Positions 16,643 to 31,393 of a DNA stretch of 52,991 nucleotides are shown piece after piece; the stretch's first letter is position 1; each line of letters starts with the position of its first letter. The notes beneath the pieces were generated by a model. The model was not told the DNA's origin, did no database searches, and saw only the letters and a list, made by a program, of their open reading frames with translations. This DNA comes from Patescibacteria group bacterium (GTDB taxonomy: Bacteria > Patescibacteriota > Minisyncoccia > Phycocordibacterales > UBA9973). The position numbers were made by a program, and so were the translations under genes. Location: positions 1 through 52,991 of the forward strand of contig JAHIVA010000021.1 in NCBI GenBank assembly GCA_018816985.1, written 5' to 3'.

Positions 16643-18028
16643 TTAATATTTTATTTTTCCAAAAAATATTACATAATTTTTATTATTTTTTTCTCCATTT
16701 TCATAATTCACCAATTGTGCTTCTCCGTTAGGTAAAATAATTCCGGCAAAATCTTTTACGCCACTGGAAACAATCGGCAACTTGAGCCAGACTGCTTCTA
16801 TTTTCTTTAAATTACTGGTCAGATATGAAAAATGATATGAACCAAGACCAATCCAGCGATTACTTGTCGGGTTGATAATAAATTGCGCTCCTTTATTCAG
16901 ATATTCTTTTAAGTCGCTCGGATAATGAATTTCTAAGCAAATAGGAGTTGCAAAAAATGCCATATTTTTTTGAAATGTTATCGAGAGAAGATTTCTTTCT
17001 CCTGGAATATCTGCATTTTGTGGATTGAAAATTGCATAATCGCTAATTTCCGGATTTTTCTCTCTAAGCCATTTATATATTGATGGTTGCCAATTACCAA
17101 AAGGCCAATATTCGCCGATAAAGGTAAGACGGTTTTTATTATGCATATTCGTAATATTTCCCTCAGGGTCAAAGAGGATTGAGGAATTATATTTATTTTC
17201 GTTTTGGAAGGTATCGTACGAAGTAAGAACATAGGTATTTAATTCTCTGGCTGTGTTTTGAAATATGAGGTCAGAATTTTGTTGTTGGTCGAAAATATTT
17301 TCGGGGAATATGATTAAATCAACTTTTTGTTTTGAAAGCTCTTTAATAAGTTCATTAGATGAATCTATCGTGAAGGTGTTGTCGGTAGAAACAGAAATAA
17401 TTGTAAATGAATTCGGCAGAGCATTGTAGGCAAGGGAATTTTTATATAAATTAAACCTGGACATACCCCAACTAAAAAAAAGAATAATAAAAATTAAGGC
17501 AACAGAAAGAATATTATTTTTTGAATTTTTTCGTTGCAGAATAGCGGCAGAAATTAATATGTTTATAAAAGCAACAAAAAAAGTAAGGATTAAAAATCCG
17601 CCTATATTAGCCAGCCCGACAAAAGGAGATGAACCGAGCGCATTGCCAGCAGTTATAATATAAGTTGGAATTAGAGCAAAATGTGCCTGCAATAGGTCGA
17701 AAAAAGTCCAAGCAAATGGCAAGAAAATCAACATTGGCAAGGCAGAGGTTGTTTTGTTTGTAAATTTTTTGAATAAAAAAACAGAAAAAGGCAGACCGAG
17801 AAAAATAAGGATGACCTCGGTCCACAATATCGGCTCCAAGGTAAAGTAGACCGTGCCGAAGAGAAAAATTATACGAAATAAAGCAGTACCTAAGACAAGC
17901 CGCCAGAGCTTTTCTTCGCGCAAGAAAAAAAGAAAAAGAGGGATAAGAAAAATAAAAGCTAGGGGGTAAAAATTAAACGGCAAGAAAGCGACAATACCTA
18001 AAACTGCAGCTAGAAGTGGCAAAATCAT
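16643..18028 (-). CDS. lnt: apolipoprotein N-acyltransferase
   Basis: 461 aa. A polytopic N-terminal half is followed by a CN-hydrolase half with IIFPENIF (Glu), KNRLTFIGEYWPFG (Lys) and PICLEIHY (Cys). Confidence 0.8.
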   Translation of the reverse strand: MILPLLAAVLGIVAFLPFNFYPLAFIFLIPLFLFFLREEKLWRLVLGTALFRIIFLFGTVYFTLEPILWTEVILIFLGLPFSVFLFKKFTNKTTSALPMLIFLPFAWTFFDLLQAHFALIPTYIITAGNALGSSPFVGLANIGGFLILTFFVAFINILISAAILQRKNSKNNILSVALIFIILFFSWGMSRFNLYKNSLAYNALPNSFTIISVSTDNTFTIDSSNELIKELSKQKVDLIIFPENIFDQQQNSDLIFQNTARELNTYVLTSYDTFQNENKYNSSILFDPEGNITNMHNKNRLTFIGEYWPFGNWQPSIYKWLREKNPEISDYAIFNPQNADIPGERNLLSITFQKNMAFFATPICLEIHYPSDLKEYLNKGAQFIINPTSNRWIGLGSYHFSYLTSNLKKIEAVWLKLPIVSSGVKDFAGIILPNGEAQLVNYENGEKNNKNYVIFFGKIKY

Positions 18029-18034
18029 AAGTTG

Positions 18035-18607: not shown

Positions 18608-18609
18608 AC

Positions 18610-18645: not shown

Positions 18646-18665
18646 CTCTACGAAAGGAGAAAAAG

Positions 18666-19232
18666 ATGAAAAAAAGTTTTTGCTACTCGTTCTTTTTGTC
18701 GTTCTTTTTGGTTTTTTTTGCGGGGTGCGCTCATATGCTGGCACCCCAGCAGGGACTCGAAAAGGGGGAAAGGTTGTCGCTCGCCATAGCGAGCGTAACC
18801 TTCCATTCGGCGCTTGTCGAAGCGCCGAATGGGAACAGGGTTGAGGTTGATGTGTCCTCTCCCATTCGTAGCGACAAGTACGCGGCGGTCTTCGTCGCGG
18901 CCACAAAAAAAACCCTACTTGAAGGGTTTCGCGTCAGGGGAGTTATCATAGACCCTGATGCGATAACAAGGTTAGAAGTTGTTATCGCCGAGAGCTATCG
19001 CTCTCTCGCGGTCGTGCGGCTGATGGTGGGTCGCATTACGCGAGATGGAGAGACGGTCGAGGCACGAACGTCTCGGTGGACACCTGATCCTGCGCGTAAC
19101 GCCTTTGATATGGATGGGTGGCGCAATCTATCCGCGGCGAAGACCGCCGCGTGGTTTATGGGAGAGGATCTCATAAATGAGATCTTAAATTCCCTTCGTA
19201 AGAAGGGAGAGATGAGGAGGAAGGAGAAATAG
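18666..19232 (+). CDS. lipoprotein (188 aa), GC-rich island 3
   Basis: I start it at MKKSFCYSFFLSFFLVFFAGC (lipobox FAGC), with AAGGAG 6 nt upstream. The listed start at 18483 would read through the preceding terminator. Confidence 0.65.
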   Translation: MKKSFCYSFFLSFFLVFFAGCAHMLAPQQGLEKGERLSLAIASVTFHSALVEAPNGNRVEVDVSSPIRSDKYAAVFVAATKKTLLEGFRVRGVIIDPDAITRLEVVIAESYRSLAVVRLMVGRITRDGETVEARTSRWTPDPARNAFDMDGWRNLSAAKTAAWFMGEDLINEILNSLRKKGEMRRKEK

Positions 19233-19247
19233 CATATGGAAATTTCC

Positions 19248-19284
19248 AAATGCCCAGCCGAGCCTTAGCTCGGCTGGGCATTTT
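19248..19284 (+). terminator. 16-bp stem, 4-nt loop and T-rich tail: AAATGCCCAGCCGAGC-ctta-GCTCGGCTGGGCATTT
   Basis: Read directly. The stem base is identical to that of hairpin 18610..18645 (AAATGCCCAGC / GCTGGGCATTT). Confidence 0.7.
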
Positions 19285-19364
19285 ATTTTTATCTATTTTT
19301 ATTATAAATATTGAGAAAAGTTATCCACAGTTTTTGTTTGAATAATATCTCGCCTGGTTTTTTG

Positions 19365-19418: not shown

Positions 19419-19676
19419 ATGGAACAAAATATTTCAAACGATAATTTTAAATTATGGACAAAATGGTTTTGGATTGGCATTGTAATCGCAATTCTTAGTA
19501 TGGTTTCTGGTATTGTGTATGGTATTGCACTTTCTCTAGAGAAAGACTATCGGAAAGAAGGAATTATCATTATTGTTGTTGCCATCGCGTGGTTTTTATT
19601 TGCTATGTTTATTCTTGGTCCATGGCTCAAGAGCGTAGGAGTGTTGCCGAATTATCAGTTGTTACAGATACGCTAA
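19419..19676 (+). CDS. small membrane protein (2 predicted TM helices)
   Basis: 85 aa. Hydrophobic segments: WFWIGIVIAILSMVSGIVYGIAL and GIIIIVVAIAWFLFAMFILGPW. Confidence 0.55.
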   Translation: MEQNISNDNFKLWTKWFWIGIVIAILSMVSGIVYGIALSLEKDYRKEGIIIIVVAIAWFLFAMFILGPWLKSVGVLPNYQLLQIR

Positions 19677-19683
19677 TAATTTT

Positions 19684-21858
19684 ATGAGGAATTTTTTTAA
19701 AAATAAAATAATAATTTTGTTTCTTATTTTTTCTATAATATTTTTTGTACCGACGCAGACTGCACAGGCTGGTGACGCACTTGGAACTGTTCTTTCAGTA
19801 TTGACGACTGTGGTTGCTGTTGCCGCAGTAATTATTCAACCGGAGCTTGCTTTGACGATGGGAGCCTTTCTTATAGCTGATGGAAGCGTCATTGGTTTAA
19901 CGGGTGTTATCACGACCATCGCGCTAACAGGGAGTGTTTCAACAGGGATCATTGCGTGTGTTACCGGTTTAGTTTGTCCAGACGGACAGAATGGTGGAGT
20001 GATATTATTACCGACAACAACAGAACTTGCAACAAGTTGTAATTTTCAGATTCCAGTCACTTTTTATATTCCACGCTTGAACGAACAAGTTGATGAATCT
20101 GATAGACAGGTAGCTATATATCGATTCACGCAGCCAACGAGCGTTACTCAAGCTGTGCTCAATGATTGGTTTATAAATCAAATTCCGGCATCGGTTGGTG
20201 ATGGATGGATGGACGCTTGTACGTATAATTATTATACAGGTGGTGAATATAGTGAGACTCTTTGTTCAACTGAGGGTAGTTACAAAATCTCTTCGGAATC
20301 TACTCGACTAGTTACTTTAAATTATTCTGACTTTTGCTTAGGCAATGTTTGCGAATTTACAGATGCGACTGTACCCGAAAATTCCTATGTAGCTTACGTG
20401 GCAAAAATTTTAGGTAACTATAGTTATAGTGCTCAAACAATAATTGGTGGCATTTCGGAAGGATATATCGCCGATTCTGTTGATACTCGTCCAAACAAAT
20501 TTTTAAACAACGACGATAACCCTTCGTATGCATATTTTCCTCCCTATAACAATACAATTGGTAACGCAATCGTGGGGCCCTACCAAGTAGGAACGCCAGA
20601 CTGCCCTGTGTGTGATAATGGTGCGAATAATTATCCAGATTGTAATACTTGCACTACTCCATTGAAATGGAGTGTATTGTCATCGTCTTGTGTTGATACC
20701 ACCGGAAAGTGTACGAACGATGTATGCAATAACGGTGCAAATAATTGTCCTGATTGTACGACCTGCACTCCACCATACACTATGGTAAACAACGTGTGTG
20801 CGACACCTACGAAAATAGATGGAGTCTGCTCTTCTCCAGCTGTTCATTTTACTTGTGCCTTTGGTACAAGCATTAACAATGCCGGAGGGGCAACAGCCTA
20901 TACATGGTCCTGTGCTGGTGTAAATGGTGGCGCTACCGATTCGTGTTCCGAACCCAAAAGTCAATATTCTTGCACCAATTTACCTTCAAATGCAAACAAT
21001 TTTGCCGCACCGGATAATACCGACCTAACATCCAATACCTCTTACACCTATTCAGCAGTTGGTGATACTCCAACGAAATGCGAATTTAACTGTAATATTG
21101 GTTATATGTGGAATGGAGCTAGTTGTGTCGCAACCACCTGTCCTAATGGTGCCAACAATCCTCCTACTTGTACATTTTCTGCACCATCTACCACCTCCGC
21201 AACTTGTACAGTTTCGCCCACTACTCTCAATTGGGAAAATACAGGCACTACTCGTTATTACTTAGTAACAAAAGTTGATGGTGTGGAAACTCCACACTGG
21301 GTTCTTAATGCAAATTCCTATTCTCTTACCACTTCCCCAGGGAAAACGTATCAATTTTGGGTGCATTCTTGCACTGCTCAAGATGTTTGTACTTGGAATG
21401 AGGTTTCTCCTGTAACAACATTTACTTGTCCTACTTTAAATACACTCACAATCACCAAAGCCGGTACAGGGGGTGGTACAGTTACTAGCAGTCCTGCGGG
21501 GATTAATTGTGGTTCGTCTTGTTCGATTCCATATGCTTCTGGAATTCCTGTTTCTCTAACTGCTACGCCGAATGGTTCGTCTCAATTTACCAGTTGGTCT
21601 GGTGACACTGACTGTAATGATGGGAGTGTAACAATGAATTCTAGTAAAACTTGTATTGCAACCTTTAATCTAACGCCTGCTAATCCTACGCAAGCTGACC
21701 TCACGGTTCAAAACCTCTCTGTTTCTGGTAATTTAACTGCTGGCAATTCTCTTTCTTTTTCTGCTACCATTAGAAATCAGGGAGCCGGTTTATCTGAAAA
21801 CTTCACTAAGCCTTTTGCAAATGTGTTGGCTTTATTAGTTAAAGAATTAAATAAATAA
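19684..21858 (+). CDS. giant Cys-rich secreted/surface protein
   Basis: 724 aa with a signal peptide ending TQTAQA. It contains a hydrophobic G/A/V/T-rich segment, three C-x-NGANN-x-P-x-C motifs and a GVC...H..C...W.C.G.NGG...C module. It also has one copy of the Cys-framed domain shared with 22227..24947, an Ig-like TLTITKAGTGGGTVTSSPAGINCGSSCS... repeat and a cut-off CARDB-like end. Confidence 0.75.
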   Translation: MRNFFKNKIIILFLIFSIIFFVPTQTAQAGDALGTVLSVLTTVVAVAAVIIQPELALTMGAFLIADGSVIGLTGVITTIALTGSVSTGIIACVTGLVCPDGQNGGVILLPTTTELATSCNFQIPVTFYIPRLNEQVDESDRQVAIYRFTQPTSVTQAVLNDWFINQIPASVGDGWMDACTYNYYTGGEYSETLCSTEGSYKISSESTRLVTLNYSDFCLGNVCEFTDATVPENSYVAYVAKILGNYSYSAQTIIGGISEGYIADSVDTRPNKFLNNDDNPSYAYFPPYNNTIGNAIVGPYQVGTPDCPVCDNGANNYPDCNTCTTPLKWSVLSSSCVDTTGKCTNDVCNNGANNCPDCTTCTPPYTMVNNVCATPTKIDGVCSSPAVHFTCAFGTSINNAGGATAYTWSCAGVNGGATDSCSEPKSQYSCTNLPSNANNFAAPDNTDLTSNTSYTYSAVGDTPTKCEFNCNIGYMWNGASCVATTCPNGANNPPTCTFSAPSTTSATCTVSPTTLNWENTGTTRYYLVTKVDGVETPHWVLNANSYSLTTSPGKTYQFWVHSCTAQDVCTWNEVSPVTTFTCPTLNTLTITKAGTGGGTVTSSPAGINCGSSCSIPYASGIPVSLTATPNGSSQFTSWSGDTDCNDGSVTMNSSKTCIATFNLTPANPTQADLTVQNLSVSGNLTAGNSLSFSATIRNQGAGLSENFTKPFANVLALLVKELNK

Positions 21859-21859
21859 T

Positions 21860-22222
21860 ATGGAACAAAAAACAAAATTTTCTATTTTAGCAGTGTTGGT
21901 TATCATTATTATAGTAAGTGGAGCATATTTGTTTAAAGGAGAAGAGTCAGCGAATCAGCCATCTTTTCCTTCAGAAAACAGTCAAGCATTGCAAAAGATT
22001 GATCGTGAGATTAATGGGAAAATTCGTTCAATTAATGAAAAAGCTGTGTATGTTGAACTTGAAGATGGTAATGGTTTTGCTATTGGTATAAGTTCAAGTA
22101 CCTTTGTTGTCACTCAAGGTATTTCCGACCTAGGCACACTCGCTGATTTAAAAGAAGGACAGAGTATTACAGCTAGCGTGGATGTTGCTGATAATGCAAT
22201 TCAGATTTTAATAAAGAAATAA
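21860..22222 (+). CDS. small N-terminally anchored protein
   Basis: 120 aa. One TM segment (FSILAVLVIIIIVSGAYLF). It is separated by 1 nt from the upstream gene and 4 nt from the downstream gene. Confidence 0.55.
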   Translation: MEQKTKFSILAVLVIIIIVSGAYLFKGEESANQPSFPSENSQALQKIDREINGKIRSINEKAVYVELEDGNGFAIGISSSTFVVTQGISDLGTLADLKEGQSITASVDVADNAIQILIKK

Positions 22223-22226
22223 AATT

Positions 22227-24947
22227 ATGAAAAAAATATTTTTTATATGTCTCGTTGTAGTAGCTAGCGCAATGTTGTATACCAACACTGTCTATGCTAC
22301 TACTGTGGGTTCTGGAAGTTGCACACCGCGAGACCACAACCTATCAAACTATGATCCATTTTATCCAAACGACTGGTGGTGCGACAGCTGGTCTTTTAGT
22401 GGAGCTGCTGCTGGTGGGCCAAGTTGTAGTATCGGTTATGTTGGAGGACAAACGTATTTTTACAAAACAGGTGGTCTGATTGGGTTTAGTTGTTATGCAA
22501 ATGATAACAATTGTGCCGCCAGTACGTGTATTGGATCATCTTGTTGGAATAGTTATCAATGGGTAAGCGGAACCAAAACCTGTAACGTAGATAATGGTTG
22601 TGCCGCGAATACTTGTTCAACTTCATCTTGTTGGAATAGTTATCAATGGGTAAGCGGAACCAAAACCTGTAATGTAGACAATGGTTGTGCCGCAAATACT
22701 TGTGTTGGGTCAACTTGTTGGAATAGCTATCAATGGAGGAGTGGCACCAAGACTTGCAACGTAGATAATGGTTGCGCCGCGAGTACTTGTAGTTACAATA
22801 CTTGTTATAATAGCTATCAATGGGTTCAAGGAACGAATATAAATGCCTGTCCAGTGCCAAGTCTTTCGTCTGCTTCTTGCCCGTCGCCTGGCACTACAGC
22901 ATCATTAAGTTGGTCTAATACTGGTGCGCCACGCTATTATTTAGTAACAAGGAATGTGACTGATGGTAGCGGGGACTCGCCACAGTGGGTGTATACGAAT
23001 TCAGGGTCCATCTCTACGACTCCTGGGAAGACTTATTGGTTTTGGGCGCATTCTTGTACTTCCGGTGGTACTTGCAATTGGAATTCATCCAGTCCTCAAT
23101 ATAAAAGTTTTACCTGTACTGCCCCAGCAGTCCCAACCATCACTTTCACCGCTTCTCCGTCCGTGGCATACAATGGTCGCGCAACCTTAACATGGAGTTC
23201 TCAAAATGCTACCAGCTGTGTTTCCACCGGCCCTTGGTCAGCCCTACCTATTAGTGGAGGTAGTGGTCTTACTGATCCTTTAACTTCTAACACAACCTTC
23301 ACTTTCCGTTGCACAGGTCCCGGAGGAACTACAGCAACAATATCAAGGACGGTGACGGTTGGCATAATTCCTGCCCCAAATTCATTATCAGCAACCTGTT
23401 CTGTTTCTTCTGCGTCTCTTAGTTGGCAGAACACTGGCGCATCCCTTTATTATTTAGTTACCAGAAATGTAACTGATGGTGGTGCCGATGTCGCAAAGTG
23501 GGTATATACAAATTATAGTTCTGTTCCGACGGTTCCAGGTAAGACGTACCAGTTTTGGGTTCATTCCTGTACTGCTCAAGACGTTTGCAACTGGGTAGAG
23601 CATTCTCCGGTGACAACACTTACGTGTCAAAACGCGCCGACCGGTCTTACCGCTTCCTGTCCGTTGCCTGGAAATAATGCGATACTTTCTTGGAACGCTT
23701 CTAATGGAGCCAGTTATTATGCTGTTCGTATTGACGACACGACGAAAGGCATAAATGACGATACCTGCAGCGGTGCCACTGGCGATTCTTGTCCTTGGCC
23801 GACCACTAATTCGTATTCTTTTATTCCGATTCCTGGTGATTCATATCGTTTTTGGGTTCACGCTTGTAGTGCTATTAATGTGTGTAATTGGGAAGATTCA
23901 AGTCCTCAAGAAGTAGTATTTACTTGCGTGGCACCGATGACCCAAGCTAGTTTGGAAATAGATTTAAACAATAATGGAAGCTATGACGTTACCTTGCCAA
24001 GTGTATCTGTAAAAGCTTTGGGTGCTGGTGGCGCGGAAACAGTTAATTGGACAGGAGCAAATGCATGGACCGCAGTTGCTGGAACTCACAAGTTCAGAAT
24101 TTGCGCTGATGCCTTAAATTCATCATCAGAGTCAAATGAAAGTAACAATTGCTCTACTGGTATTTTTACTGTGGAAGAATCTGAGATTGAGATGACTGGT
24201 TCACTCTCTATTCCGTCTTGTACTATTAGTAATGGAGGAAGTACTTGTACGACATTAGCGTCATGGTCTACAGAAAATCCAGAAGCAACATCTGCGATTA
24301 CCAAAGATGGGGTAAATGGAAATTATAAAACAGGGAATAATAAAACAGATGAACCGTTTACCCTTCCTTATGGTTCTTCAACCTTTAGGCTTTATAATCA
24401 TTCCAAATTACTTGATACTGTTGTTGTGACTGCGGGTTGTAGTACGTCACCAGTTTATACTGTTTGGAATACAGACAATGAAAGATGTGAAACTATTCTT
24501 GCTACTCTTTCTGCTTCACTTGAAGCTAGTCCTTCAAGTGGGGTAGTGCCTTTGTCTAGCACTCTCACGGCTACGCGTACTGGCGGTACTGCTTCGGGAG
24601 CTATCAGTTATAGATTTAAATGTAAAACTAGTAATTCTTGGAGTTCTTCTCAGTCCTCTAATTCTTATTCTTGTAATTATCCATTAGCCAATACCTACAC
24701 AGCTTCTGCTGAAGTTACACAACAAGGAGTGACAGCAATTCCTACCACAACAATTACGGTTAATCCTCCTGCAGTTGATGGATCCTGTCTTTCTCCGGCT
24801 ATTCATTATAATTGTCCTGCCGGCAGTACAAGCCTTGAGGAATTAAGTAGTCCAAGCCGTTGGACATGGAGATGTACAGGCTTAAATGGAGGAGATCCTA
24901 GCCCTCAATGTTTTGAGAGAAAAAGTCCTGGATTTATAGAGAATTAA
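22227..24947 (+). CDS. giant Cys-rich secreted/surface protein
   Basis: 906 aa with a signal peptide. It contains four 29-aa Cys repeats, three copies of the shared Cys-framed domain, Ig-like modules and a C-terminal GSC...H..C...W.C.G.NGG...C module. Confidence 0.8.
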   Translation: MKKIFFICLVVVASAMLYTNTVYATTVGSGSCTPRDHNLSNYDPFYPNDWWCDSWSFSGAAAGGPSCSIGYVGGQTYFYKTGGLIGFSCYANDNNCAASTCIGSSCWNSYQWVSGTKTCNVDNGCAANTCSTSSCWNSYQWVSGTKTCNVDNGCAANTCVGSTCWNSYQWRSGTKTCNVDNGCAASTCSYNTCYNSYQWVQGTNINACPVPSLSSASCPSPGTTASLSWSNTGAPRYYLVTRNVTDGSGDSPQWVYTNSGSISTTPGKTYWFWAHSCTSGGTCNWNSSSPQYKSFTCTAPAVPTITFTASPSVAYNGRATLTWSSQNATSCVSTGPWSALPISGGSGLTDPLTSNTTFTFRCTGPGGTTATISRTVTVGIIPAPNSLSATCSVSSASLSWQNTGASLYYLVTRNVTDGGADVAKWVYTNYSSVPTVPGKTYQFWVHSCTAQDVCNWVEHSPVTTLTCQNAPTGLTASCPLPGNNAILSWNASNGASYYAVRIDDTTKGINDDTCSGATGDSCPWPTTNSYSFIPIPGDSYRFWVHACSAINVCNWEDSSPQEVVFTCVAPMTQASLEIDLNNNGSYDVTLPSVSVKALGAGGAETVNWTGANAWTAVAGTHKFRICADALNSSSESNESNNCSTGIFTVEESEIEMTGSLSIPSCTISNGGSTCTTLASWSTENPEATSAITKDGVNGNYKTGNNKTDEPFTLPYGSSTFRLYNHSKLLDTVVVTAGCSTSPVYTVWNTDNERCETILATLSASLEASPSSGVVPLSSTLTATRTGGTASGAISYRFKCKTSNSWSSSQSSNSYSCNYPLANTYTASAEVTQQGVTAIPTTTITVNPPAVDGSCLSPAIHYNCPAGSTSLEELSSPSRWTWRCTGLNGGDPSPQCFERKSPGFIEN
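22503..22850 (+). repeat. 4 tandem 87-bp coding repeats (29 aa: DNGCAANTC-x-TSSCWNSYQWVSGTKTCNV)
   Basis: Units start at 22503, 22590, 22677 and 22764. Units 1 to 3 are nearly identical at the DNA level. Confidence 0.9.
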
Positions 24948-24956
24948 AAAATTAAC

Positions 24957-24995
24957 AAAAAATCTACCCAAAACAAACATTTGAGTAGATTTTTT
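24957..24995 (+). terminator. AT-rich stem-loop AAAAAATCTAC-N17-GTAGATTTTTT after the 906-aa gene
   Basis: 11-bp inverted repeat that is mostly A-T. It overlaps the pilB -10 region. Confidence 0.3.
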
Positions 24996-25003
24996 GTTAT
25001 ACT
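24995..25003 (+). promoter_or_regulatory. extended -10 TGTTATACT, 7 nt before the pilB ATG (leaderless arrangement)
   Basis: TGTTATACT ataagag ATG. Confidence 0.45.
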
Positions 25004-25010
25004 ATAAGAG

Positions 25011-26765
25011 ATGCAAATTAATGAAGAACAGTTAAAAAAATTTATTTTAGACGGAGGGCTTGTGTCAAAGGCAGACCTAGAAGAAGCATTTAAAAAAGCC
25101 GAAATTAAAAAACAAAAAATTGGTGACATTTTACTTTCGGACGGTAAAATATCTGAAACAGATTTAAAGCGAATGGAAGCTTTTGTTTTAGGTATACCTT
25201 TTGTTAACTTAAATAATCAAAAAATAGATTTTTCCGTACTTTCTCTTATTCCTGAACCAATTGCGCGCAATTATAATATTGTGGCTTATAAAAAAAACGA
25301 AGATAGTTTAGAAATAGCAATGCTGGATGTGGATGATTTGCCGATGATTGATTTTATAAAAAAACGTTCCGGATTAAAAATTTTACCTCGGCTGACTGAT
25401 ACTATTTCTATTAGATCTGTTTTAGTTCAGTATCGGCAAAGTCTTAAATCTGAATTTCGAGACATTATTCAAAAAGAGAGTACGAAATTAAATCTTTCAG
25501 GAGAAGAAGAAAAAAACACCGAAAAATCTGACTTAGAACTAAAAGAAATAGCAGAAGGTTTGCCAGTAATAAAGATAGTTGATTCTTTGATTTTTCATGC
25601 AATTTTACAAAATGCCTCTGATATTCATATTGAACCTGGGGAAAAGGAACTTACGGTTCGTTATCGAATAGATGGTATTCTGCACGACGCGATGGTTTTG
25701 GATAAAAATGCCGGTTCCGGAATAACGGCACGTATCAAAGTATTGTCCAATTTAAAACTAGATGAAAAACGCTTACCTCAAGACGGCAGGTTTAAAATAG
25801 AACAAAATGGAGAAAAAATTTCTTTTCGTGTTTCTACTCTGCCTACCTTTTTTGGAGAAAAGACAGTAATTAGAATATTGAAAGAGAATGCTCACGGTTT
25901 TTCTTTAGAAATATTGGGTTTTCATGTTGAAGGGTTGGAAAGAATTCATAATTCATTAAAACAAAAAACTGGAATGGTCCTTGCGACTGGTCCAACAGGT
26001 AGTGGTAAAACGACAACTCTTTATACTATGTTAGATATTTTAAATAGACCGGAAGTTAATATTTCAACAGTTGAAGATCCTATTGAATACCAGATGCTGA
26101 GAGTTAACCAGACTCAAGTTAAACCGGAAATTGGGTTGTCTTTTGCTAATGGCTTACGTTCATTATTACGTCAAGATCCAGATATAATCATGGTGGGAGA
26201 AATTCGTGATGGTGAAACAGCCGGATTAGCTGTCAACGCATCCCTGACGGGTCATTTGGTTCTTTCTACTATCCACACCAATTCGGCAGCAGGGGCTATT
26301 CCGAGGCTGATGGATATGGGAGTAGAGCCTTTTTTGATTACTGCCACTGTGAAGACAATTATTGCGCAAAGGTTGGTGCGTAAACTTACATCCAATAAAG
26401 AAAAATATTTTTTAAATTCTGCTGAAATAAAAAATCTGGCGAAAGTTGTCGATTTAGAGAGAATTTTAGATTTTTTAAAAACTGAAAATGTTATAGGTCC
26501 GAAAGATACTTGGGATAAAGTTCCTTTTTTTAGGCCGGTAAAGAGCACTGAATTTGAGGATGGGTATTCCAGCCGTACTGGTATGCATGAAGTGTTGAAG
26601 GTTACCCCTACGATCAAAGAAATGATTATCAAAGGTAGTTCTCAGGACGACATTGAAGCCCAAGCAAAAAAAGAGGGGATGATGACTATGATTGAAGATG
26701 GAGTTTTTCAGGCAGTCTTGGGTGTAACCACCCTAGAGGAAGTATTTCGGGTTGTTTCGGAATAA
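25011..26765 (+). CDS. pilB: type IV pilus / type II secretion assembly ATPase
   Basis: 584 aa. It has a T2SSE_N-like N-terminus and a GPTGSGKTTTL Walker A motif. Other motifs: RQDPDIIMVGEIRD and HLVLSTIHTN. Confidence 0.9.
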   Translation: MQINEEQLKKFILDGGLVSKADLEEAFKKAEIKKQKIGDILLSDGKISETDLKRMEAFVLGIPFVNLNNQKIDFSVLSLIPEPIARNYNIVAYKKNEDSLEIAMLDVDDLPMIDFIKKRSGLKILPRLTDTISIRSVLVQYRQSLKSEFRDIIQKESTKLNLSGEEEKNTEKSDLELKEIAEGLPVIKIVDSLIFHAILQNASDIHIEPGEKELTVRYRIDGILHDAMVLDKNAGSGITARIKVLSNLKLDEKRLPQDGRFKIEQNGEKISFRVSTLPTFFGEKTVIRILKENAHGFSLEILGFHVEGLERIHNSLKQKTGMVLATGPTGSGKTTTLYTMLDILNRPEVNISTVEDPIEYQMLRVNQTQVKPEIGLSFANGLRSLLRQDPDIIMVGEIRDGETAGLAVNASLTGHLVLSTIHTNSAAGAIPRLMDMGVEPFLITATVKTIIAQRLVRKLTSNKEKYFLNSAEIKNLAKVVDLERILDFLKTENVIGPKDTWDKVPFFRPVKSTEFEDGYSSRTGMHEVLKVTPTIKEMIIKGSSQDDIEAQAKKEGMMTMIEDGVFQAVLGVTTLEEVFRVVSE

Positions 26766-26795
26766 TTTTTAATTTTAAAGTTTAATTAAATTAAT

Positions 26796-28013
26796 ATGCT
26801 TTTTTCATACAGCGCAAAATCGAAAACAGGAGAAATTTTTGAAAGCATTTTAGAGGCAACTGACCGCTATGCTCTTTCTCATGATTTACGTTCTCGCGGG
26901 TATATTCCTTTATCAATTACAGAAAAAAAGAAGGGTCTAGAGGAAAAGTTTTCAAATTTTTCCAATCTTTTTTTGAAAGTGAAAATTACAGAGCAGATTA
27001 TTTTTACTAAAAATTTGAGCGGAATGGTTAAAGCGGGGCTTTCTCTTTCTAGGGCTTTGTCGGTTTTAAAAAAACAGACAAAAAATCCCAAACTTAGTAA
27101 AATTTTAACTTCTGCTGTTAATGATATAAATGCTGGGGAAACTTTTTCTTCCGCGCTTTCTAAATTTCCCGATGTTTTTTCAAAACTTTTTATTTCTATG
27201 GTTCGCGCAGGAGAAGAGTCCGGTAATCTGGCCGGAGCACTTTCAGATATTGGATTAAATCTAGAAAAAACTAGTTCTTTGAATAAAAAAATAAAAGGTG
27301 CGCTTATTTATCCCGGGGTGATTATGTCGGCAATGGTGGTCATTGGTGTTTTGATGTTTGCTTTTGTGGTGCCGACACTAGCGAGCACATTTAAGGAACT
27401 TGGTGTTGTATTACCTTTTTCTACTCGGCTACTGATTTTTTTTGGTAATTTTTTTTCCAATAATCTAATTTTAACCTTTCTTCTTATTATTAGCGTGGCT
27501 TTTGGTTTATTTTCGCTTTTCCGCGCCAAGTTTATGGCGCCATATATTGATTTTATGATGCTAAAAATTCCGGTTATTAATGAATTGACTAGAGAATTAA
27601 ACAGCGCTCGCACTGCCCGTACCATCTCATCGTTATTACTTTCAGGTGTTTCTCTCACTCGGGCACTGGAAATAACCGAAGATGTGGTTCAAAATATTTA
27701 TTATAAAAAAATTTTAAACGAAGCAAAACTAGGGATAGAAAAAGGGGAACCTTTTTCACGGGTATTCATAGCTAATGTTAACTTGTATCCAGTGATGATG
27801 TCGGAGATGGTTCAAGTTGGGGAAGAAACTGGAAAATTATCTGATATGTTATTGCAAATTGCCTTGTTTTACGAAGGGGAAATTGAAAATAAGACAAAAA
27901 ATCTTTCTACAATTATTGAACCCCTTCTGATGGTTGTTATTGGTGTAGCAGTTGGTTTTTTCGCTATCTCGATGATTTCCCCGCTCTATTCAATTTTGGG
28001 TAGTATAAATTAA
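26796..28013 (+). CDS. pilC: type IV pilus platform protein
   Basis: 405 aa. It has a duplicated GspF-type domain (MVRAGEESGNL and MVQVGEETGKL) and 3 TM segments. Confidence 0.88.
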   Translation: MLFSYSAKSKTGEIFESILEATDRYALSHDLRSRGYIPLSITEKKKGLEEKFSNFSNLFLKVKITEQIIFTKNLSGMVKAGLSLSRALSVLKKQTKNPKLSKILTSAVNDINAGETFSSALSKFPDVFSKLFISMVRAGEESGNLAGALSDIGLNLEKTSSLNKKIKGALIYPGVIMSAMVVIGVLMFAFVVPTLASTFKELGVVLPFSTRLLIFFGNFFSNNLILTFLLIISVAFGLFSLFRAKFMAPYIDFMMLKIPVINELTRELNSARTARTISSLLLSGVSLTRALEITEDVVQNIYYKKILNEAKLGIEKGEPFSRVFIANVNLYPVMMSEMVQVGEETGKLSDMLLQIALFYEGEIENKTKNLSTIIEPLLMVVIGVAVGFFAISMISPLYSILGSIN

Positions 28014-28018
28014 TTTAC

Positions 28019-29452
28019 TTAATTTTTAACTTCTTGCCACGAAAGTATATTATATTGATTTCCAGTCAAGGGGAAGTCGGGTGGTGGAGCATAGAGTAAA
28101 TTTGCGTCGTAGGTTATATTTCGTATAGCATAACCAGTATCATCCGTATAAGCAAAACCATATCTTGCATAGGAAGCAATCATTCCATAAAGAGAAATAA
28201 CTTCTCGGTTTTTATAAGCACAACCTCCTCCGCTATAATAAAATCTTCCTACTCTGTCATTTTGAGCTATAAGTGCCGCATCTATCTTTAGATTATCTTC
28301 ACTTTTCATTCCAACCATTACCCCGGCTTGTCCAATAAGTCCTATAGAATCAGATCCATCATAAGAAGTATAAAGAAGGTCATTATTTACTATTATATTT
28401 TTAAAATTAGTTGGGTTTGATGGTACCGGTAAGTCAGCCGCAGCAATAGTGAGCCGGGCTCCATTTATCTGTCCATCAACTACAATATTGTCTTCTAGAA
28501 AAATTATTCCATTAGTTGGAAAATTAAAATTGCCCTGTAGGGTTTGAGTGCCAACACTGAAGCTGTATGTCGAGCCGGAACAATTTCCTAAACTAGCCCA
28601 ACTATTTATTTTATAAAGATCAAAAGTGTTGTTTGTTTTTAAGACAATATGATATCCAACGTATTTGCTTCCTGCTTTGTTTTGATAAAACCCTTCTGAT
28701 ATTGCATTGGCTTGTAGCATGGCCAAGTCGGTTGTAAATCCAGAGAAATCAATGGTCGGCTGACTAATCAATCGTCCGGCTTCAAAAACATCTGAACGAG
28801 ATGGGAGTGTGGCGGGATATGTTGGATCAGCCGGAGATAAGCAAGTATGTACGCCATAAGAATTGCTGGTGGTGCAAGCATCGCTGTCCGTATCGGTGTA
28901 AGTTGTGGTTCCGCTAGTAACAATATTATGGGCTAGGCCATCAAAACGAATTCCGCCATTAATATGAACTGGTCCGAAAATTTCTGTTCCGGTGCCGAAG
29001 CGCATAGCATTATTTCCTGCCACCGAATATTTCGCGATAGATGGTTTAACTACCTCTGTTTCTATTTTTCTTAGATATGACGGATCAAGCACAGAAGAGC
29101 CAGTCGAGTTTATTTTTACTAAAGTTGAGCCGGGAGCCGGGGGAGTTATATTTAAAGAAAACTGTCCCACTGTATTATTATTTTTATCTTTTAAAAAATG
29201 AATATATGGGCCTGAAGTTCCTGTTCCGTCTTGGTAGTCAGTGGGGGCGTGGGCTAAATGCCAGCGGTAATAATCTATTCCGGCTTCCGATGACTGAAAG
29301 GCTTGCTCTCGATTAAAAGCTATTCGTCCTGTTTTAACTGTTGTCGCTGCCCATCCCGCCAGGGCTCCAATAATCATAATAGATACTGTGGCAAATATCA
29401 TTGTTTGCACTATAATCATACCTCCATCTTTTTTCATTTTTTTATTTATCAT
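28019..29452 (-). CDS. large PilX-like minor pilin / pilus-associated protein
   Basis: 477 aa. The N-terminal segment GGMIIVQTMIFATVSIMIIGALAGWA is hydrophobic and lacks Glu5. It has a 4-nt overlap with the upstream pseudopilin gene. Confidence 0.55.
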   Translation of the reverse strand: MINKKMKKDGGMIIVQTMIFATVSIMIIGALAGWAATTVKTGRIAFNREQAFQSSEAGIDYYRWHLAHAPTDYQDGTGTSGPYIHFLKDKNNNTVGQFSLNITPPAPGSTLVKINSTGSSVLDPSYLRKIETEVVKPSIAKYSVAGNNAMRFGTGTEIFGPVHINGGIRFDGLAHNIVTSGTTTYTDTDSDACTTSNSYGVHTCLSPADPTYPATLPSRSDVFEAGRLISQPTIDFSGFTTDLAMLQANAISEGFYQNKAGSKYVGYHIVLKTNNTFDLYKINSWASLGNCSGSTYSFSVGTQTLQGNFNFPTNGIIFLEDNIVVDGQINGARLTIAAADLPVPSNPTNFKNIIVNNDLLYTSYDGSDSIGLIGQAGVMVGMKSEDNLKIDAALIAQNDRVGRFYYSGGGCAYKNREVISLYGMIASYARYGFAYTDDTGYAIRNITYDANLLYAPPPDFPLTGNQYNILSWQEVKN

Positions 29453-30069
29453 AAATTATCTTTTAAATTTCTTATTGAAACCTGGGTTGAAAAAGTCATT
29501 GGGGTAGGTGATCGATTTGGATCTTTATCTAATACAATAGTTACTTTTACTAAACGAATATCTGGTATATTCACAGGAGAAGATAAGGGTGCCGTGTTTC
29601 CGTCATAGTTTCTGTCGTAATATTCAAAAAGTACAGAATTAGCTAATTTATCTATGAGAGTTGAAATTGTTTCATTGGCAGGATTATAGGTTAGTGGACT
29701 TCCCGTGGGTTTTGTTGTCCCCTTCTGAAGGGAAGTTTCCGATAAAAAATATCTTACTTTTTCCTTCAATCCATCGTTGTCTATATCAGAATAAAAAGTG
29801 AAAGCGGTAGCTGTTGCCAGACTAATTGTATAAGCTCCAGTATTAGCTGTCGAGGCAGTGCGTATTTCGGATGTTAAAGTTTTTAAAACCTGTCTTCCGG
29901 CATTAGTGTCAGCTAACCCTCCGGCGACAAAAGAATTATAGATCCAAACATTTCTTGAAAAAAGAGTCAGTAAAATAACTATCAAAATAAAAATTGATAT
30001 TCCAAAAAGAGTTTCGATTAGAGTAAAGCCTGACGCTAATTTTATTTTATTTTTTATTTTTTTTTGCAT
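29449..30069 (-). CDS. prepilin-type N-terminal cleavage/methylation domain protein (pseudopilin)
   Basis: 206 aa. It contains the KLASG/FTLIETLFGISIFILIV class III signal. Confidence 0.8.
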   Translation of the reverse strand: MQKKIKNKIKLASGFTLIETLFGISIFILIVILLTLFSRNVWIYNSFVAGGLADTNAGRQVLKTLTSEIRTASTANTGAYTISLATATAFTFYSDIDNDGLKEKVRYFLSETSLQKGTTKPTGSPLTYNPANETISTLIDKLANSVLFEYYDRNYDGNTAPLSSPVNIPDIRLVKVTIVLDKDPNRSPTPMTFSTQVSIRNLKDNL

Positions 30070-30070
30070 A

Positions 30071-31393
30071 TTAAGGCATAAGGGTTATAATTTTATTTTG
30101 CCAAGAAGACATTGAAAAAGAAGAAACATTGTTTTGGTATCCGACCTTAGAAACGGTCAGGGTGTAAGTACCACTTCCAAGCCCATTCCAAAAAACTTGA
30201 CCAGGAGTAGCACAAGAACCGGAATTTGTGGTTTTGGTTTGATTAAATCCGCTTTTTTGCAGATGAACAGTCGCGCCATCAATGGCGACACCATCAGAAG
30301 TTTTGACGGAAACCAACAAGGCTCTGTTTATATGGGGCGTTACCACTAATTGTAAATTTTTTATCTCATTTGGATTTATGTTGAAAATTGCTAAAGGAGT
30401 TGTACCAGCTAAATCATAGGAGGCGGAAGTAAGTAAGGCTGAATAAGTGTCCCATTCAATAATAGGAATCGTATAACTTCCATTAGTATTGGTTGTGAAA
30501 TTTTGTGTTGGATATTTTAAAACTGAAGGTGTTCCAATCAGTTTCGTTCCAGTTAAAGAAAAGCCAATAGAAGGTAAAGAGACACAAGCTGAGTCTACTG
30601 TTTCAATTATAAGAGAACTTGTTCTGTCTATTGAAAAATTAGTTAGGGTAACTTGTTGTTGAACCACTGTTGCATCGGGCTTAACTGGATTTGCTCCCGC
30701 TGCCCCATCCGGGGGGTATGTTTGATCCTGAGTAAATCCTGATTTAGTGGCAATTATGTTATATGCATTTATTCCGATTGGTGCGTCTACTATTTTCATC
30801 CATCCGGCATTGTCCGTTGTTTCGTCGATAATAGTATCTGGATTTGTTTGTGTATTGACTAAATGAATCGAGGCGTTTGGAATTGCAATGCCACTTGCGT
30901 CAAAAACTCGAATAAAAAGTGCTCCATTGGTGGAGGCGGTTTCAAGCGCATGGGGAGCAACCAAGGTGGTGAAACTAAGCGGTGTTAATGTTTTACAATT
31001 AGAACAAATTAGATCCAAATCTATTAATTTATAATCTGCTGGCGAAGTATCTGGTGGGTTTCCTTCAATTATTCCATCAAAAGGGTCGTCCACACTTCTG
31101 ATTGTTGTTTGTATATCAAAAGAATAATTATCTCGTATTATTGTTTCATTTCTTTGGATTTTTCCTACCGGTAACCCTGCCACGATACCTACATCCGTGT
31201 AAGGTAAGTTACGTATTATTTCTAACTTCTCATTAGCTAAAGTTGTTCCAGCTAGTTTTGCTTGTGAAATGGTTACTGCGTCCATCAACACACCGAAGGC
31301 TTTATAAGCGGAAAGTGCTACTAGTAAAAAAACAACACTACCAACCAATGTTTCAATTAAGGTAAATCCTCTTTGTCTAGTGTAAAAATTCAT
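30071..31393 (-). CDS. oversized pseudopilin with carboxypeptidase-regulatory-like beta-sandwich repeats
   Basis: 440 aa. It contains the QRG/FTLIETLVGSVVFLLVAL class III signal. Later segments include IRVFDASGIAIPNASIHLVN and VKTSDGVAIDGATVHLQ. Confidence 0.75.
   Translation of the reverse strand: MNFYTRQRGFTLIETLVGSVVFLLVALSAYKAFGVLMDAVTISQAKLAGTTLANEKLEIIRNLPYTDVGIVAGLPVGKIQRNETIIRDNYSFDIQTTIRSVDDPFDGIIEGNPPDTSPADYKLIDLDLICSNCKTLTPLSFTTLVAPHALETASTNGALFIRVFDASGIAIPNASIHLVNTQTNPDTIIDETTDNAGWMKIVDAPIGINAYNIIATKSGFTQDQTYPPDGAAGANPVKPDATVVQQQVTLTNFSIDRTSSLIIETVDSACVSLPSIGFSLTGTKLIGTPSVLKYPTQNFTTNTNGSYTIPIIEWDTYSALLTSASYDLAGTTPLAIFNINPNEIKNLQLVVTPHINRALLVSVKTSDGVAIDGATVHLQKSGFNQTKTTNSGSCATPGQVFWNGLGSGTYTLTVSKVGYQNNVSSFSMSSWQNKIITLMP

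What the first reader, a model, noticed from the sequence alone, without database searches (positions are those of the whole stretch)
19419..24947. Duplicated module of small membrane protein plus giant Cys-rich secreted protein, directly upstream of the pilus genes
Four tightly packed plus-strand genes have gaps of 7, 1 and 4 nt and form two similar pairs:
- An 85-aa protein with 2 TM helices, followed by a 724-aa protein.
- A 120-aa protein with 1 TM helix, followed by a 906-aa protein.

Both large proteins have signal peptides, dozens of cysteines in regular patterns and several shared module types, and neither has a recognisable catalytic domain. Both small proteins begin MEQ.

The cluster ends 63 bp before pilB-pilC, and three oversized pseudopilin genes converge from the other side. 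The whole block 19419..31393 could therefore encode a pilus-linked adhesion or host-attachment apparatus whose main components belong to no family I can name.
Basis: partly seen in the sequence, partly recalled or inferred. Interest (0 to 1): 0.66.

Follow-up and report, generated by a model that had tools for sequence, protein, structure and literature searches.

The report
Strain-variable surface adhesin operon beside pilus
A four-gene operon of an ultrasmall (CPR/Paceibacterota-type) bacterium encodes two cysteine-rich surface proteins, each with its own small membrane partner; one piece of it is swapped as a cassette between otherwise identical strains, which marks it as a likely attachment-specificity locus next to the pilus genes.

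Summary
The four genes exist exactly as described: gaps of 7, 1 and 4 nt, and 63 nt to pilB. B and D hold 5.0% and 5.4% Cys, against 0.71% in the other 39 genes.

They are not a duplicated module. The small proteins A and C are unrelated (E=2.4), and B and D share only mobile domains. They are two different conserved pairings.
- A (85 aa, 2 TM) sits directly beside a secreted protein ending in a short C-terminal tail (ΦxE[VI]xP or ΦxE[FN]) in at least 16 non-redundant loci. That neighbour is often a B-family protein. B's N-terminal 210-aa domain models at pLDDT 88 and matches no PDB or viral fold.
- C pairs with D-like proteins in three lineages.
- D has no full-length homologue.

The main new result is a polymorphism. 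A MAG identical to the window on both flanks carries a deeply diverged allele (pS 0.64-0.80) of window 19482-20531, which covers A residues 22-85 and B residues 1-283. Three assemblies break at the edges of this segment.

Pilus linkage is partial: type IV pilus genes lie near A in 10 of 20 loci of at least 7 kb, in several gene orders, but near none of 5 B- or D-like loci that lack A. Best reading: a strain-variable adhesin-like surface operon, probably working with the pilus. No function was tested.

The parts
19248..19283 (+). Strong terminator-like hairpin (16-bp stem, 10 G-C pairs, T tail) after the upstream lipoprotein gene. Marks the likely 5' boundary of the A-B-C-D transcription unit.
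   Evidence: sequence read
19419..19676 (+). Gene A: an 85-aa protein with two hydrophobic helices, a Trp-rich N-terminal motif (KWFWIG) and a conserved EKDxRKEG loop. It belongs to a small CPR-only family.
   Evidence: No curated family reaches threshold.
19482..20531 (+). Allelic cassette covering A residues 22-85 and B residues 1-283. Flanks are 100% (5') and 95-100% (3') identical to MAG GCA_043812335.1. Inside, identity is about 20-75% per 60-nt block, with indels.
19684..21858 (+). Gene B: a 724-aa exported Cys-rich protein. It consists of a family-specific N-terminal module, then shuffled modules, and ends in a conserved non-tail C-terminus.
19684..19977 (+). B leader (residues 1-29, ending AQA|G) and the hydrophobic Gly/Ala/Val-rich segment (residues 30-98). 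Both lie in front of the conserved domain.
   Evidence: Of 42 family members, 33 have a segment with KD19 >= 1.6.
19978..20607 (+). B N-terminal conserved domain (residues 99-308), with 4 invariant Cys. The AlphaFold2 model has pLDDT 88.3 and pTM 0.85. No fold match was found.
   Evidence: Family size.
21181..21429 (+). B Cys-containing FN3-like domain (residues 500-582). It is 59% identical in protein, and 74% in DNA over 123 nt, to D residues 383-467.
21448..21807 (+). B Flg_new_2 (InlB B-repeat-like) domain, followed by the first 39 positions of a CARDB domain. The ending ...LALLVKELNK is conserved in L070 at 60% identity.
21860..22222 (+). Gene C: a 120-aa protein with one N-terminal TM helix and a small β-rich domain. 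Homologues lie next to D-like proteins in L070 and L071.
22227..24947 (+). Gene D: a 906-aa exported Cys-rich modular protein with no full-length homologue. It ends in the tail ...PGFIEN.
22512..22859 (+). Four tandem 87-nt (29-aa, 4-Cys) repeats in D. Two 37-nt cores are 100% identical.
   Evidence: protein sequence
22857..23927 (+). D array of FN3-like/Cys domain, Ig-like domain, then two more FN3-like/Cys domains (residues 211-567). The Ig-like unit (about residues 300-380) is the most widely shared module.
23940..24158 (+). D match to the C-terminal part of CARDB (22.0 bits, just under the 22.7 cut-off).
24765..24944 (+). D C-terminal Cys module (CxSPxxHYxC...WxWxCxGxNGG...C), followed by the extreme C-terminal tail PGFIEN.
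24953..24999 (.). A 20-bp AT-rich hairpin between D and pilB. It is a possible transcription boundary.
25011..28013 (+). pilB (T2SSE plus MshEN domains) and pilC (T2SSF).
28019..31393 (-). Three pilin-like genes. The 477-aa protein is called PilX-like only by eye: Pfam gave no PilX_N match for it. The 206-aa and 440-aa proteins carry GFTLIE prepilin motifs.
16643..18028 (-). lnt (apolipoprotein N-acyltransferase). It is a recurrent neighbour of A and B homologues.

Best explanation
A-B-C-D is one operon of a Paceibacterota-type CPR bacterium. It makes a strain-variable, disulfide-stabilised set of cell-surface, adhesin-like proteins.

**Two unrelated small/large pairings**
- A is a 2-TM protein. 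Across its family it is encoded directly beside a Sec-exported protein that ends in a short tail (ΦxE[VI]xP or ΦxE[FN]).
- Here A's neighbour is B. B carries a conserved leader, a hydrophobic or amphipathic segment, and a 210-aa β-rich domain with no fold match, followed by shuffled β-sandwich and Cys-knot modules. B itself lacks the tail and has a different, conserved ending.
- C is an N-terminally anchored small protein that pairs with D-type proteins. D is a mosaic of FN3-like, Ig-like, CARDB and Cys-repeat modules ending in the tail.

**Proposed mechanism (inferred, not shown)**
- Both large proteins are exported by Sec.
- They are oxidised by the MdbA/VKOR-type system typical of CPR.
- They are held at the envelope through the small membrane partners and/or the tail.
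- They present binding modules to host cells or particles.

**Shown**
- A residues 22-85 plus B residues 1-283 exist as at least two anciently diverged alleles in an otherwise identical genome.
- That segment therefore behaves as an exchangeable unit. I take it to be a specificity module (inferred).

**Relation to the pilus**
- Type IV pilus genes recur around A in several gene orders.
- I infer that the system works alongside the pilus in attachment. None of the four proteins is a pilin.
For: **Operon structure**
- Gaps are 7, 1 and 4 nt, with a terminator upstream and a hairpin downstream.

**Exported, Cys-rich, no enzyme domain**
-.
- CPR-enriched MdbA-like oxidoreductase plus VKOR are described in 10.1101/335083.
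- Large Cys-rich extracellular proteins with strain variation are a known CPR theme (PMC4736985).
- Type IV pili and several adhesins are essential for epibiotic growth in Saccharibacteria (PMC10633639).

**B family**
- 81 clusters at E <= 1e-3 among 1.84 billion representatives; the domain is N-terminal in the listed full-length members.
- 7 loci in 185,579 species genomes.
- Model pLDDT 88.3. Best Foldseek E is 0.08 in PDB and 0.24 in BFVD.

**A pairing**
- A lies directly upstream of B in the window, L013, L001, L003, L004, L019, L032 and L036.
- A tail-bearing exported protein lies 0-123 nt from A, on the same strand, in at least 16 non-redundant loci.
- The tail occurs in 42 of 59 B-family proteins of at least 400 aa.
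- It also occurs in 24 of 234 distinct ORFs of at least 200 aa, and all 24 have signal-peptide-like N-termini.

**C-D pairing**
- L070 has the C homologue (45% identity, E=6e-27) between a B-like end (60% identity) and a D-like protein.
- L071 has the C homologue (E=3e-24) after a D-like protein.

**D as a mosaic**
- Best coverage by any other protein is 43%.
- Module depth along D is mapped, and the tandem repeats.

**Cassette**
-.

**Pilus linkage**
- 10 of 20 A loci of at least 7 kb.
- PilM/PilN, the PilD peptidase and N_methyl pilins were confirmed by Pfam.
Against: - No binding, localisation or expression data exist.
- Signal peptides and topology are judged from sequence only.
- The anchoring roles of A, C and the tail are inferred from adjacency alone.
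- B in this window lacks the tail.
- In about a fifth of family members B's post-leader segment is amphipathic rather than TM-grade (9 of 42). A universal membrane anchor is therefore doubtful.
- If B were N-terminally anchored, its most variable part would lie closest to the membrane, which is odd for a specificity module.
- A is also often next to lnt (12 of 20 loci) and to PilX-like genes, so its real partner is not settled.
- Synteny counts come from related lineages and are not independent.
Confidence: 0.5

Rival explanations
1. Pilus-presented adhesins, working like PilY1/PilC. B and/or D, or tail-bearing proteins in general, are loaded onto the type IV pilus together with the PilX-like and other minor pilins. 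A acts as the membrane factor that hands them to the priming complex.
For: - The triad 'tail-bearing protein, A, PilX-like gene' recurs in L031, L033, L041-43, L061, L064 and L059.
- In L031, B and A sit between PilD plus pilins and a PilX-like gene.
- In L026, B lies next to PilM, PilN and PilB.
- In the window and L003 the unit abuts pilB.
- Like PilY1, B and D are large non-pilin proteins with ordinary signal peptides.
Against: - There is no PilY1/Neisseria_PilC domain and no prepilin signal.
- Five B- or D-like loci without A have no pilus genes within 8-10 kb, and L001 and L004 have none either.
- A hairpin separates D from pilB.
- The PilX_N match is weak (E=0.0018, below cut-off).
- No physical evidence exists.
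Confidence: 0.2
2. A general envelope or S-layer-like structural coat. B and D would be abundant wall or coat proteins, whose variation reflects phage or grazer pressure rather than host attachment.
For: - Both are β-sandwich arrays with many disulfides and no binding domain of known specificity.
- The neighbourhood holds lnt and several lipoprotein genes, that is, envelope biogenesis.
- The C-terminal tail is shared by many exported proteins, as a wall-retention signal would be.
Against: - The B family is rare: 81 clusters, and 7 of 185,579 species genomes. D has no orthologue even in L003, a relative with 91% identical PilB.
- A core envelope component should be more conserved and more widespread.
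- No SLH or other known wall-binding domain was found.
Confidence: 0.12
3. A membrane-active effector with a cognate protector. B's mature N-terminus (a Gly-initiated hydrophobic or amphipathic peptide plus a β-rich domain with very long strands) inserts into a target membrane. A protects or chaperones it in the producer, which is why A and the B N-module are swapped together.
For: - A residues 22-85 and B residues 1-283 are replaced as one unit between otherwise identical genomes.
- The post-leader segments look like amphipathic or fusion-peptide-like helices, for example GGVVDFFSSVINAVITV.
- The only recurrent, though non-significant, Foldseek theme is aerolysin-like proteins: 5zu4, 3zxg, 6lhz and 6rb9.
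Against: - Those Foldseek hits have E >= 0.08, probability <= 0.07 and TM about 0.1, so they are noise level.
- No toxin or pore-forming family matches.
- Joint replacement of A and the B N-module may simply reflect adjacency within one recombination tract.
- A also occurs without any B-type neighbour.
Confidence: 0.08
4. A remnant of a phage or mobile element, with B and D as tail-fibre or receptor-binding proteins carried on an island.
For: - The locus is hypervariable and mosaic.
- L001 carries a Peptidase_S74 (tail-spike chaperone) protein inside the equivalent cluster.
- B and D have a higher GC content (0.41-0.43) than their neighbours (0.35).
Against: - There are no phage structural, integrase or replication genes in or beside the unit.
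- BFVD has no fold match.
- The unit sits in conserved housekeeping synteny (nusA, lnt, pilB) in several genomes.
- Both large proteins have Sec-type leaders.
Confidence: 0.03

Closest known systems
PilY1 / PilC tip-associated adhesins of type IV pili (Pseudomonas, Neisseria, Myxococcus)
   Same: They are large non-pilin proteins with ordinary signal peptides, encoded among pilus and minor-pilin genes, and they determine attachment. In relatives, B- or tail-bearing proteins sit beside PilX-like, PilD and pilin genes. A small gene of unknown role accompanies them (from my own knowledge, pilY2 beside pilY1).
   Different: There is no PilY1/Neisseria_PilC β-propeller. The proteins are Cys-rich β-sandwich arrays. 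Linkage to pilus genes is only partial. No evidence places them at a pilus tip.
Large cysteine-rich extracellular proteins of CPR bacteria (Peribacteria genomes, PMC4736985)
   Same: They come from the same kind of organism. They have signal peptides, very high Cys content and no functional annotation, are proposed to act in attachment, and are noted as a source of strain variation.
   Different: That paper describes a class, not these families. Not described there: the A partner, the B N-domain, the C partner, the C-terminal tail, and the cassette-type polymorphism.
Gram-positive wall-anchored adhesins (MSCRAMM / LPXTG-sortase substrates)
   Same: They have a Sec leader, tandem Ig-like or FN3-like stalk domains, a variable ligand-binding N-terminal region and a short C-terminal sorting element.
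   Different: The tail here sits at the very C-terminus, with no following hydrophobic helix or basic anchor, and there is no LPXTG motif. The proteins are stabilised by disulfides. The proposed partners are small membrane proteins, not sortase.
Recombinational surface variation: allelic replacement of surface-protein segments, as in Neisseria pilE/pilS or mosaic adhesin genes (from my own knowledge)
   Same: A short segment of a surface-protein locus is replaced by a deeply diverged homologous segment, with crossovers in conserved flanking motifs.
   Different: No silent donor copy is present in the 53-kb window. The replaced unit spans two genes. The frequency and mechanism are unknown.

Membership tests
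PilY1 / Neisseria PilC pilus-tip adhesins | C-terminal PilY1/PilC β-propeller domain (Pfam Neisseria_PilC) | tested here: not met
   Pfam scan of B and D at E <= 0.1 lists only Flg_new_2, CARDB and GEVED.
PilY1 / Neisseria PilC pilus-tip adhesins | Encoded within a minor-pilin or pilus operon | tested here: inconclusive
   Met in the window, L003, L026 and L031/33. Not met in L001, L004, L007, L011, L012 or L070.
PilY1 / Neisseria PilC pilus-tip adhesins | Physical location at the pilus tip | not testable with these tools
   Needs microscopy or biochemistry.
Type IV pilins / pseudopilins | Class III signal: short leader, G|F(T/S)LxE, N-methylation motif | tested here: not met
   N_methyl/TIGR02532 matches only the 440-aa protein. 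GFTLIE is present only in the 206-aa and 440-aa proteins. A-D have none.
Generic CARDB / FN3 / Ig-like cell-surface repeat proteins | The protein is explained by tandem known β-sandwich domains | tested here: inconclusive
   B: Flg_new_2 at 30.5 bits and a CARDB fragment at 23.5 bits. D: CARDB at 22.0 bits, below the cut-off. Curated models cover about 8-16% of each protein. The C-terminal halves are clearly shuffled modules, but B residues 1-308 are family-specific.
Sortase (LPXTG) or exosortase-type C-terminal sorting signals | A motif followed by a hydrophobic helix and a basic tail | tested here: not met
   The tails PGFIEN, FQEF and WREVIPR end the protein, and no helix follows.
Diversity-generating retroelement targets | A reverse transcriptase and a template/variable repeat pair with adenine-specific changes | tested here: not met
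   No RT domain among the window genes scanned by Pfam. No TR/VR-like repeat in 18-32 kb. Allele divergence is saturated at synonymous sites and includes an indel of about 83 aa.
Polymorphic toxin / immunity cassettes (CDI, Rhs type) | A variable C-terminal toxin domain followed by a small immunity gene | tested here: not met
   The variable part is N-terminal and the small gene lies upstream. There is no toxin domain.
Silent-cassette antigenic variation (pilE/pilS type) | Promoterless donor copies elsewhere in the genome | not testable with these tools
   Only 53 kb is available. No second copy lies in 18-32 kb. The rest of the genome was not seen.

The most novel reading that the evidence does not exclude
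A previously undescribed display system of CPR bacteria.
- The 85-aa protein A would be the membrane receptor or loader for exported proteins that end in ΦxE[VI]xP or ΦxE[FN].
- It would hand them to the type IV pilus (PilX-like minor pilins) or fix them at the host-contact site.
- B's N-module (a Gly-initiated amphipathic peptide plus a β-rich domain with no fold match) would be the part that engages the host envelope.
- Swapping alleles of that module would set which host a strain can attach to.
Probability: 0.15. Interest if true: 0.8.

Novelty: new variant of a known kind. Interest (0 to 1): 0.6.

Why it matters
How uncultivated CPR bacteria recognise and hold on to their hosts is an open question. 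Outside Saccharibacteria there are almost no candidate specificity genes.

This locus offers three concrete, testable handles.
- A two-gene segment differs sharply between genomes that are otherwise identical. Such a polymorphic surface-protein segment is a candidate host-range or phage-receptor determinant.
- A domain of about 210 aa models confidently but matches no known fold.
- A short C-terminal tail and a tiny membrane protein travel together, often within pilus clusters. This could define a lineage-specific way of retaining or presenting surface proteins.

There is also a practical point. Assemblies break at this locus, so MAG-based surveys will tend to miss or truncate these genes.

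Tried and rejected
- **B as a truncated pseudogene.** Its CARDB domain stops at profile position 39 of 101. Rejected: L070 has the same ending at 60% identity, followed by a C homologue. The other frames show no continuation.
- **DGR-type hypermutation.** Rejected.
- **The GC-rich block 18103-19232 as contamination or a chimera.** Rejected: it is identical in an independent MAG and in an ENA contig. An X188 homologue lies upstream of B in L012.
- **'Pilus linkage is absent'.** This was my early reading from the four distinct contexts in loci L001-L005. I revised it after 56 A-family loci.
- **Exact-DNA scan of JGI metagenomes** with the upstream terminator sequence found nothing.
- **PDB sequence searches** of B and D found nothing.
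- **First structure model** with the full N-terminus was poor (pLDDT 61.6) and its fold search was uninformative. I redid it on the core domain with a deeper alignment.
- **Aerolysin-like fold.** Only noise-level hits.
- **C as DUF1344/DUF5666-like.** Only a weak Pfam hit (E=0.057), and none for its homologues.
- **NCBIfam** has nothing for A, C, B-family or tail-bearing proteins.
- **Rfam and tRNA scans** of the window were empty.


Full report
**1. The observation**

- A: 19419-19676 (85 aa).
- B: 19684-21858 (724 aa).
- C: 21860-22222 (120 aa).
- D: 22227-24947 (906 aa).
- Gaps are 7, 1 and 4 nt. D ends 63 nt before a pilB gene, which is followed by pilC. Three pilin-like genes converge on the minus strand.
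- A has two hydrophobic helices and C has one. B and D start with signal-peptide-like leaders.
- B has 36 Cys (5.0%) and D has 49 (5.4%). The other 39 genes of the window average 0.71%.
- After the leaders the Cys counts are even (36 and 48). That fits full disulfide pairing.
- Curated libraries explain little:
  - B has Flg_new_2 and the first 39 positions of CARDB.
  - D has a sub-threshold CARDB match.
  - NCBIfam and PDB sequence searches give nothing.

The claim of 'two similar pairs' does not hold as homology.
- A and C are unrelated (E=2.4).
- B and D share only mobile modules:
  - a Cys-containing FN3-like domain, 59% identical in protein and 74% in DNA over 123 nt;
  - a ~50-aa Cys module;
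  - CARDB pieces.

**2. Context**

The window is a low-GC genome of CPR type.
- Its genes include pyrimidine synthesis, trigger factor, H+-PPase, nusA, lnt, pilB/pilC, tpi, pgk, recJ and comEC.
- Relatives are labelled Paceibacterota, Azambacteria or 'Patescibacteria group'.
- A strong terminator lies upstream of A (19248-19283).
- A 20-bp AT-rich hairpin lies between D and pilB.
- A-D therefore most likely form their own transcription unit. This is inferred.

**3. B**

B-family proteins share an N-terminal module, followed by unrelated C-terminal modules. The N-terminal module consists of:
- a conserved leader (M..F.K.KF..LFL.L ... AxA|G);
- a hydrophobic or amphipathic segment, mostly 35-170 aa, which is TM-grade in 33 of 42 members;
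- a domain of about 210 aa with four invariant Cys.

The family is small.
- A profile search of 1.84 billion representatives finds 81 clusters (65 at E <= 1e-10). The domain is N-terminal in the listed full-length members.
- Only 7 of 185,579 species genomes hold it.

With a 25-sequence alignment the core domain models at pLDDT 88.3 and pTM 0.85. Foldseek finds nothing significant in PDB (best E 0.08, TM <= 0.25) or BFVD (best E 0.24).

B's odd C-terminus is a truncated CARDB followed by ...LALLVKELNK. It is not decay, because L070 has the same ending at 60% identity.

**4. A and the C-terminal tail**

A belongs to a small family.
- There are 11 clusters by word search.
- There are 56 metagenome loci, 45 of them non-redundant.
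- Mean column identity across the family alignment is 66%.

Close A homologues lie directly upstream of a B-family gene in the window, L013, L001, L003, L004, L019, L032 and L036.

A wider regularity appeared. Most B-family proteins, and many proteins that share modules with D, end in one of two short tails at the very C-terminus: ΦxE[FN] (such as FQEF or PGFIEN) or ΦxE[VI]xP(R/Q) (such as WREVIPR).
- 42 of 59 B-family proteins of at least 400 aa have a tail.
- 24 of 234 distinct ORFs of at least 200 aa in all fetched loci have one.
- All 24 of those have signal-peptide-like N-termini.
- A tail-bearing exported protein lies on the same strand, 0-123 nt from A, upstream or downstream, in at least 16 non-redundant loci. 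Among loci of at least 4 kb, 13 of 23 have one within 3 kb.
- In the window only D carries the tail.
- No helix follows the tail, so it is not a sortase- or exosortase-type signal.

**5. C and D**

D has no full-length relative.
- The best coverage by any other protein is 43%, and typical coverage is about 10%.
- It is a mosaic whose most widely shared units are an Ig-like domain (residues ~300-380) and four tandem 29-aa Cys repeats. The repeats include two 100%-identical 37-nt cores.

C is conserved and travels with D-type proteins.
- In L070 the order is: a B-like C-terminus, a C homologue (45% identity, E=6e-27), then a D-like protein ending PAFQEF. The L31, RF1, S2 and EF-Ts genes follow, and there are no pilus genes.
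- In L071 a C homologue (E=3e-24) follows a D-like protein.

**6. The cassette polymorphism**

This is the strongest new result. Contig JBDRMH010000009.1 of MAG GCA_043812335.1 compares with the window as follows.
- It is 100% identical from about window position 9418 to 19346. Lnt and both upstream lipoprotein-like genes are 100% identical in protein.
- From 19482 to 20531, identity falls to about 20-75% per 60-nt block, with indels. This stretch covers A residues 22-85 and B residues 1-283.
- From 20532 to the contig end, identity returns to 95-100%.

The next contig of the same MAG starts at window position 20560.
- It overlaps the previous contig by exactly 141 nt, a k=141 graph branch.
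- It then differs from the window at 1 of 7388 positions.

Other assemblies agree.
- An ENA contig carries the window's allele, with 1 mismatch in 8721 nt.
- A Logan contig stops about 90 nt past the upstream gene, just before the variable stretch.
- Allele 2 also occurs in a JGI sample (L014).

The alleles are old.
- Synonymous differences are saturated inside the cassette (pS 0.64-0.80). Non-synonymous differences are lower (pN 0.27-0.53).
- A codons 1-21 show no change at all.
- Allele 2 has an extra loop of about 83 aa.
- Allele 2's A is closer to a protein from another sample (72%) than to allele 1 (67%).

This is replacement by recombination, not local hypermutation. No RT and no TR/VR repeat is present.

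**7. Pilus linkage**

Among the 20 non-redundant A loci of at least 7 kb:
- 10 hold PilB, PilC, prepilin or PilX-like genes;
- 12 hold lnt;
- 8 hold a B-core gene.

The gene orders differ between loci.
- L026: A converging on lnt, then B, PilM, PilN, PilO and PilB.
- L031/33/41-43: PilD and pilins, then B, A and a PilX-like gene.
- L052/59/60/66: PilB, PilT, PilC and pilins, then A.

Against the linkage:
- Five loci reached through B or D-like proteins, and lacking A, have no pilus genes.
- L001 and L004 have none within 10 kb.

My rough expectation for a random 16-kb window in a ~1-Mb CPR genome is under 10%. That is an estimate, not a computed value, and the loci are phylogenetically related. 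The link looks real mainly for A, is weaker for B, and is not seen for C and D outside this lineage and L003.

**8. Mechanism**

My best reading (confidence 0.5) is an operon for strain-variable, disulfide-rich, adhesin-like surface proteins.

Shown here:
- the gene structure;
- the conserved pairings;
- the shared C-terminal tail;
- the cassette polymorphism;
- the partial pilus synteny.

Inferred:
- Sec export;
- oxidative folding by the CPR MdbA/VKOR system (10.1101/335083);
- retention through A, C and/or the tail;
- binding to hosts;
- the A + B N-module as the specificity-determining unit.

Background from the literature:
- Large Cys-rich extracellular proteins that vary between strains are a known CPR theme (PMC4736985).
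- Pili and several adhesins are essential for epibiotic growth in Saccharibacteria (PMC10633639).

Rivals:

| Rival reading | Confidence |
|---|---|
| Pilus-presented adhesin, working like PilY1 | 0.2 |
| Structural coat | 0.12 |
| Membrane-active N-module with A as protector | 0.08 |
| Phage remnant | 0.03 |

**9. Limits**

- All functional statements rest on sequence, synteny and one predicted structure.
- Signal peptides and topology were judged from hydropathy and motifs, not from a dedicated predictor.
- The regex-based pilin calls may miss or over-call genes.
- The role of the lnt neighbourhood is unexplained.

Noticed in passing
window 15825-16541, 18215-18607, 18666-19232: Three small exported or lipoprotein-like genes flanking lnt have GC 0.50-0.57, against about 0.35 for the genome. 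They are 100% identical in MAG GCA_043812335.1. An X188 homologue lies upstream of B in L012, and a similar GC-rich lipoprotein island lies between lnt and B in L010 (8086-9867). The cause of the composition shift is unknown.
   Followed up: partly
window 1-2000 (ORFs 724-1605 and 1578-1886, minus strand): A second GC-rich block (0.48) encodes secreted-looking proteins. One has collagen-like G-x-y runs and five tandem PPRQHQ repeats. There is no Pfam match.
   Followed up: no
many loci (e.g. L004 12472, L007 6525, L026 11299, L070 3552) and window 24927-24944: Extreme C-terminal tails, ΦxE[FN] or ΦxE[VI]xP(R/Q), occur on signal-peptide proteins of these CPR lineages: 24 of 234 ORFs of at least 200 aa, all with leaders. 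This looks like an undescribed retention or sorting signal. No NCBIfam or Pfam model matches.
   Followed up: partly
window ~19325-19346 and 20560-20700: Three independent assemblies (an NCBI MAG, and ENA and Logan contigs) break at the edges of the variable cassette. MAG surveys will therefore tend to truncate these genes.
   Followed up: yes
window 44513-48535: The isoleucyl-tRNA synthetase-like gene (1340 aa) has a histidine-phosphatase (His_Phos_1) domain inserted at residues 512-679 and an HD-domain match near the C-terminus.
   Followed up: no
window 37099-38577 and 38582-39463: ComEC appears split into two adjacent ORFs: DUF4131 plus Competence, then the metallo-β-lactamase domain.
   Followed up: no
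window 35843-36475; L003 2954-3607: An IS200-like (Y1_Tnp) transposase gene is present in the window, and another in the related locus L003.
   Followed up: no
L003 19127-20482: In the close relative, pilB and pilC are separated by a 243-aa gene and a Gp49/HTH (toxin-antitoxin-like) pair.
   Followed up: no
L001 11627-13693: The equivalent cluster in L001 contains a 688-aa protein with a Peptidase_S74 (endosialidase/tail-spike chaperone) domain, lying between the B homologue and the next small/large pair.
   Followed up: no
L007 12730-14130, L011 6912-8381, L012 1581-2942 and 11902-13281: B homologues that lack an A neighbour are flanked by Cys-rich proteins of about 450-490 aa that share the motif ...IWHSLFG.PKI... 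These were not identified further.
   Followed up: no
A-family loci (12 of 20 of at least 7 kb), e.g. L010 6057-7733, L026 7809-9631, L067 2380-4162: A is very often directly beside lnt, either converging on it or diverging from it. Whether this reflects function or only inherited gene order is unexplained.
   Followed up: partly
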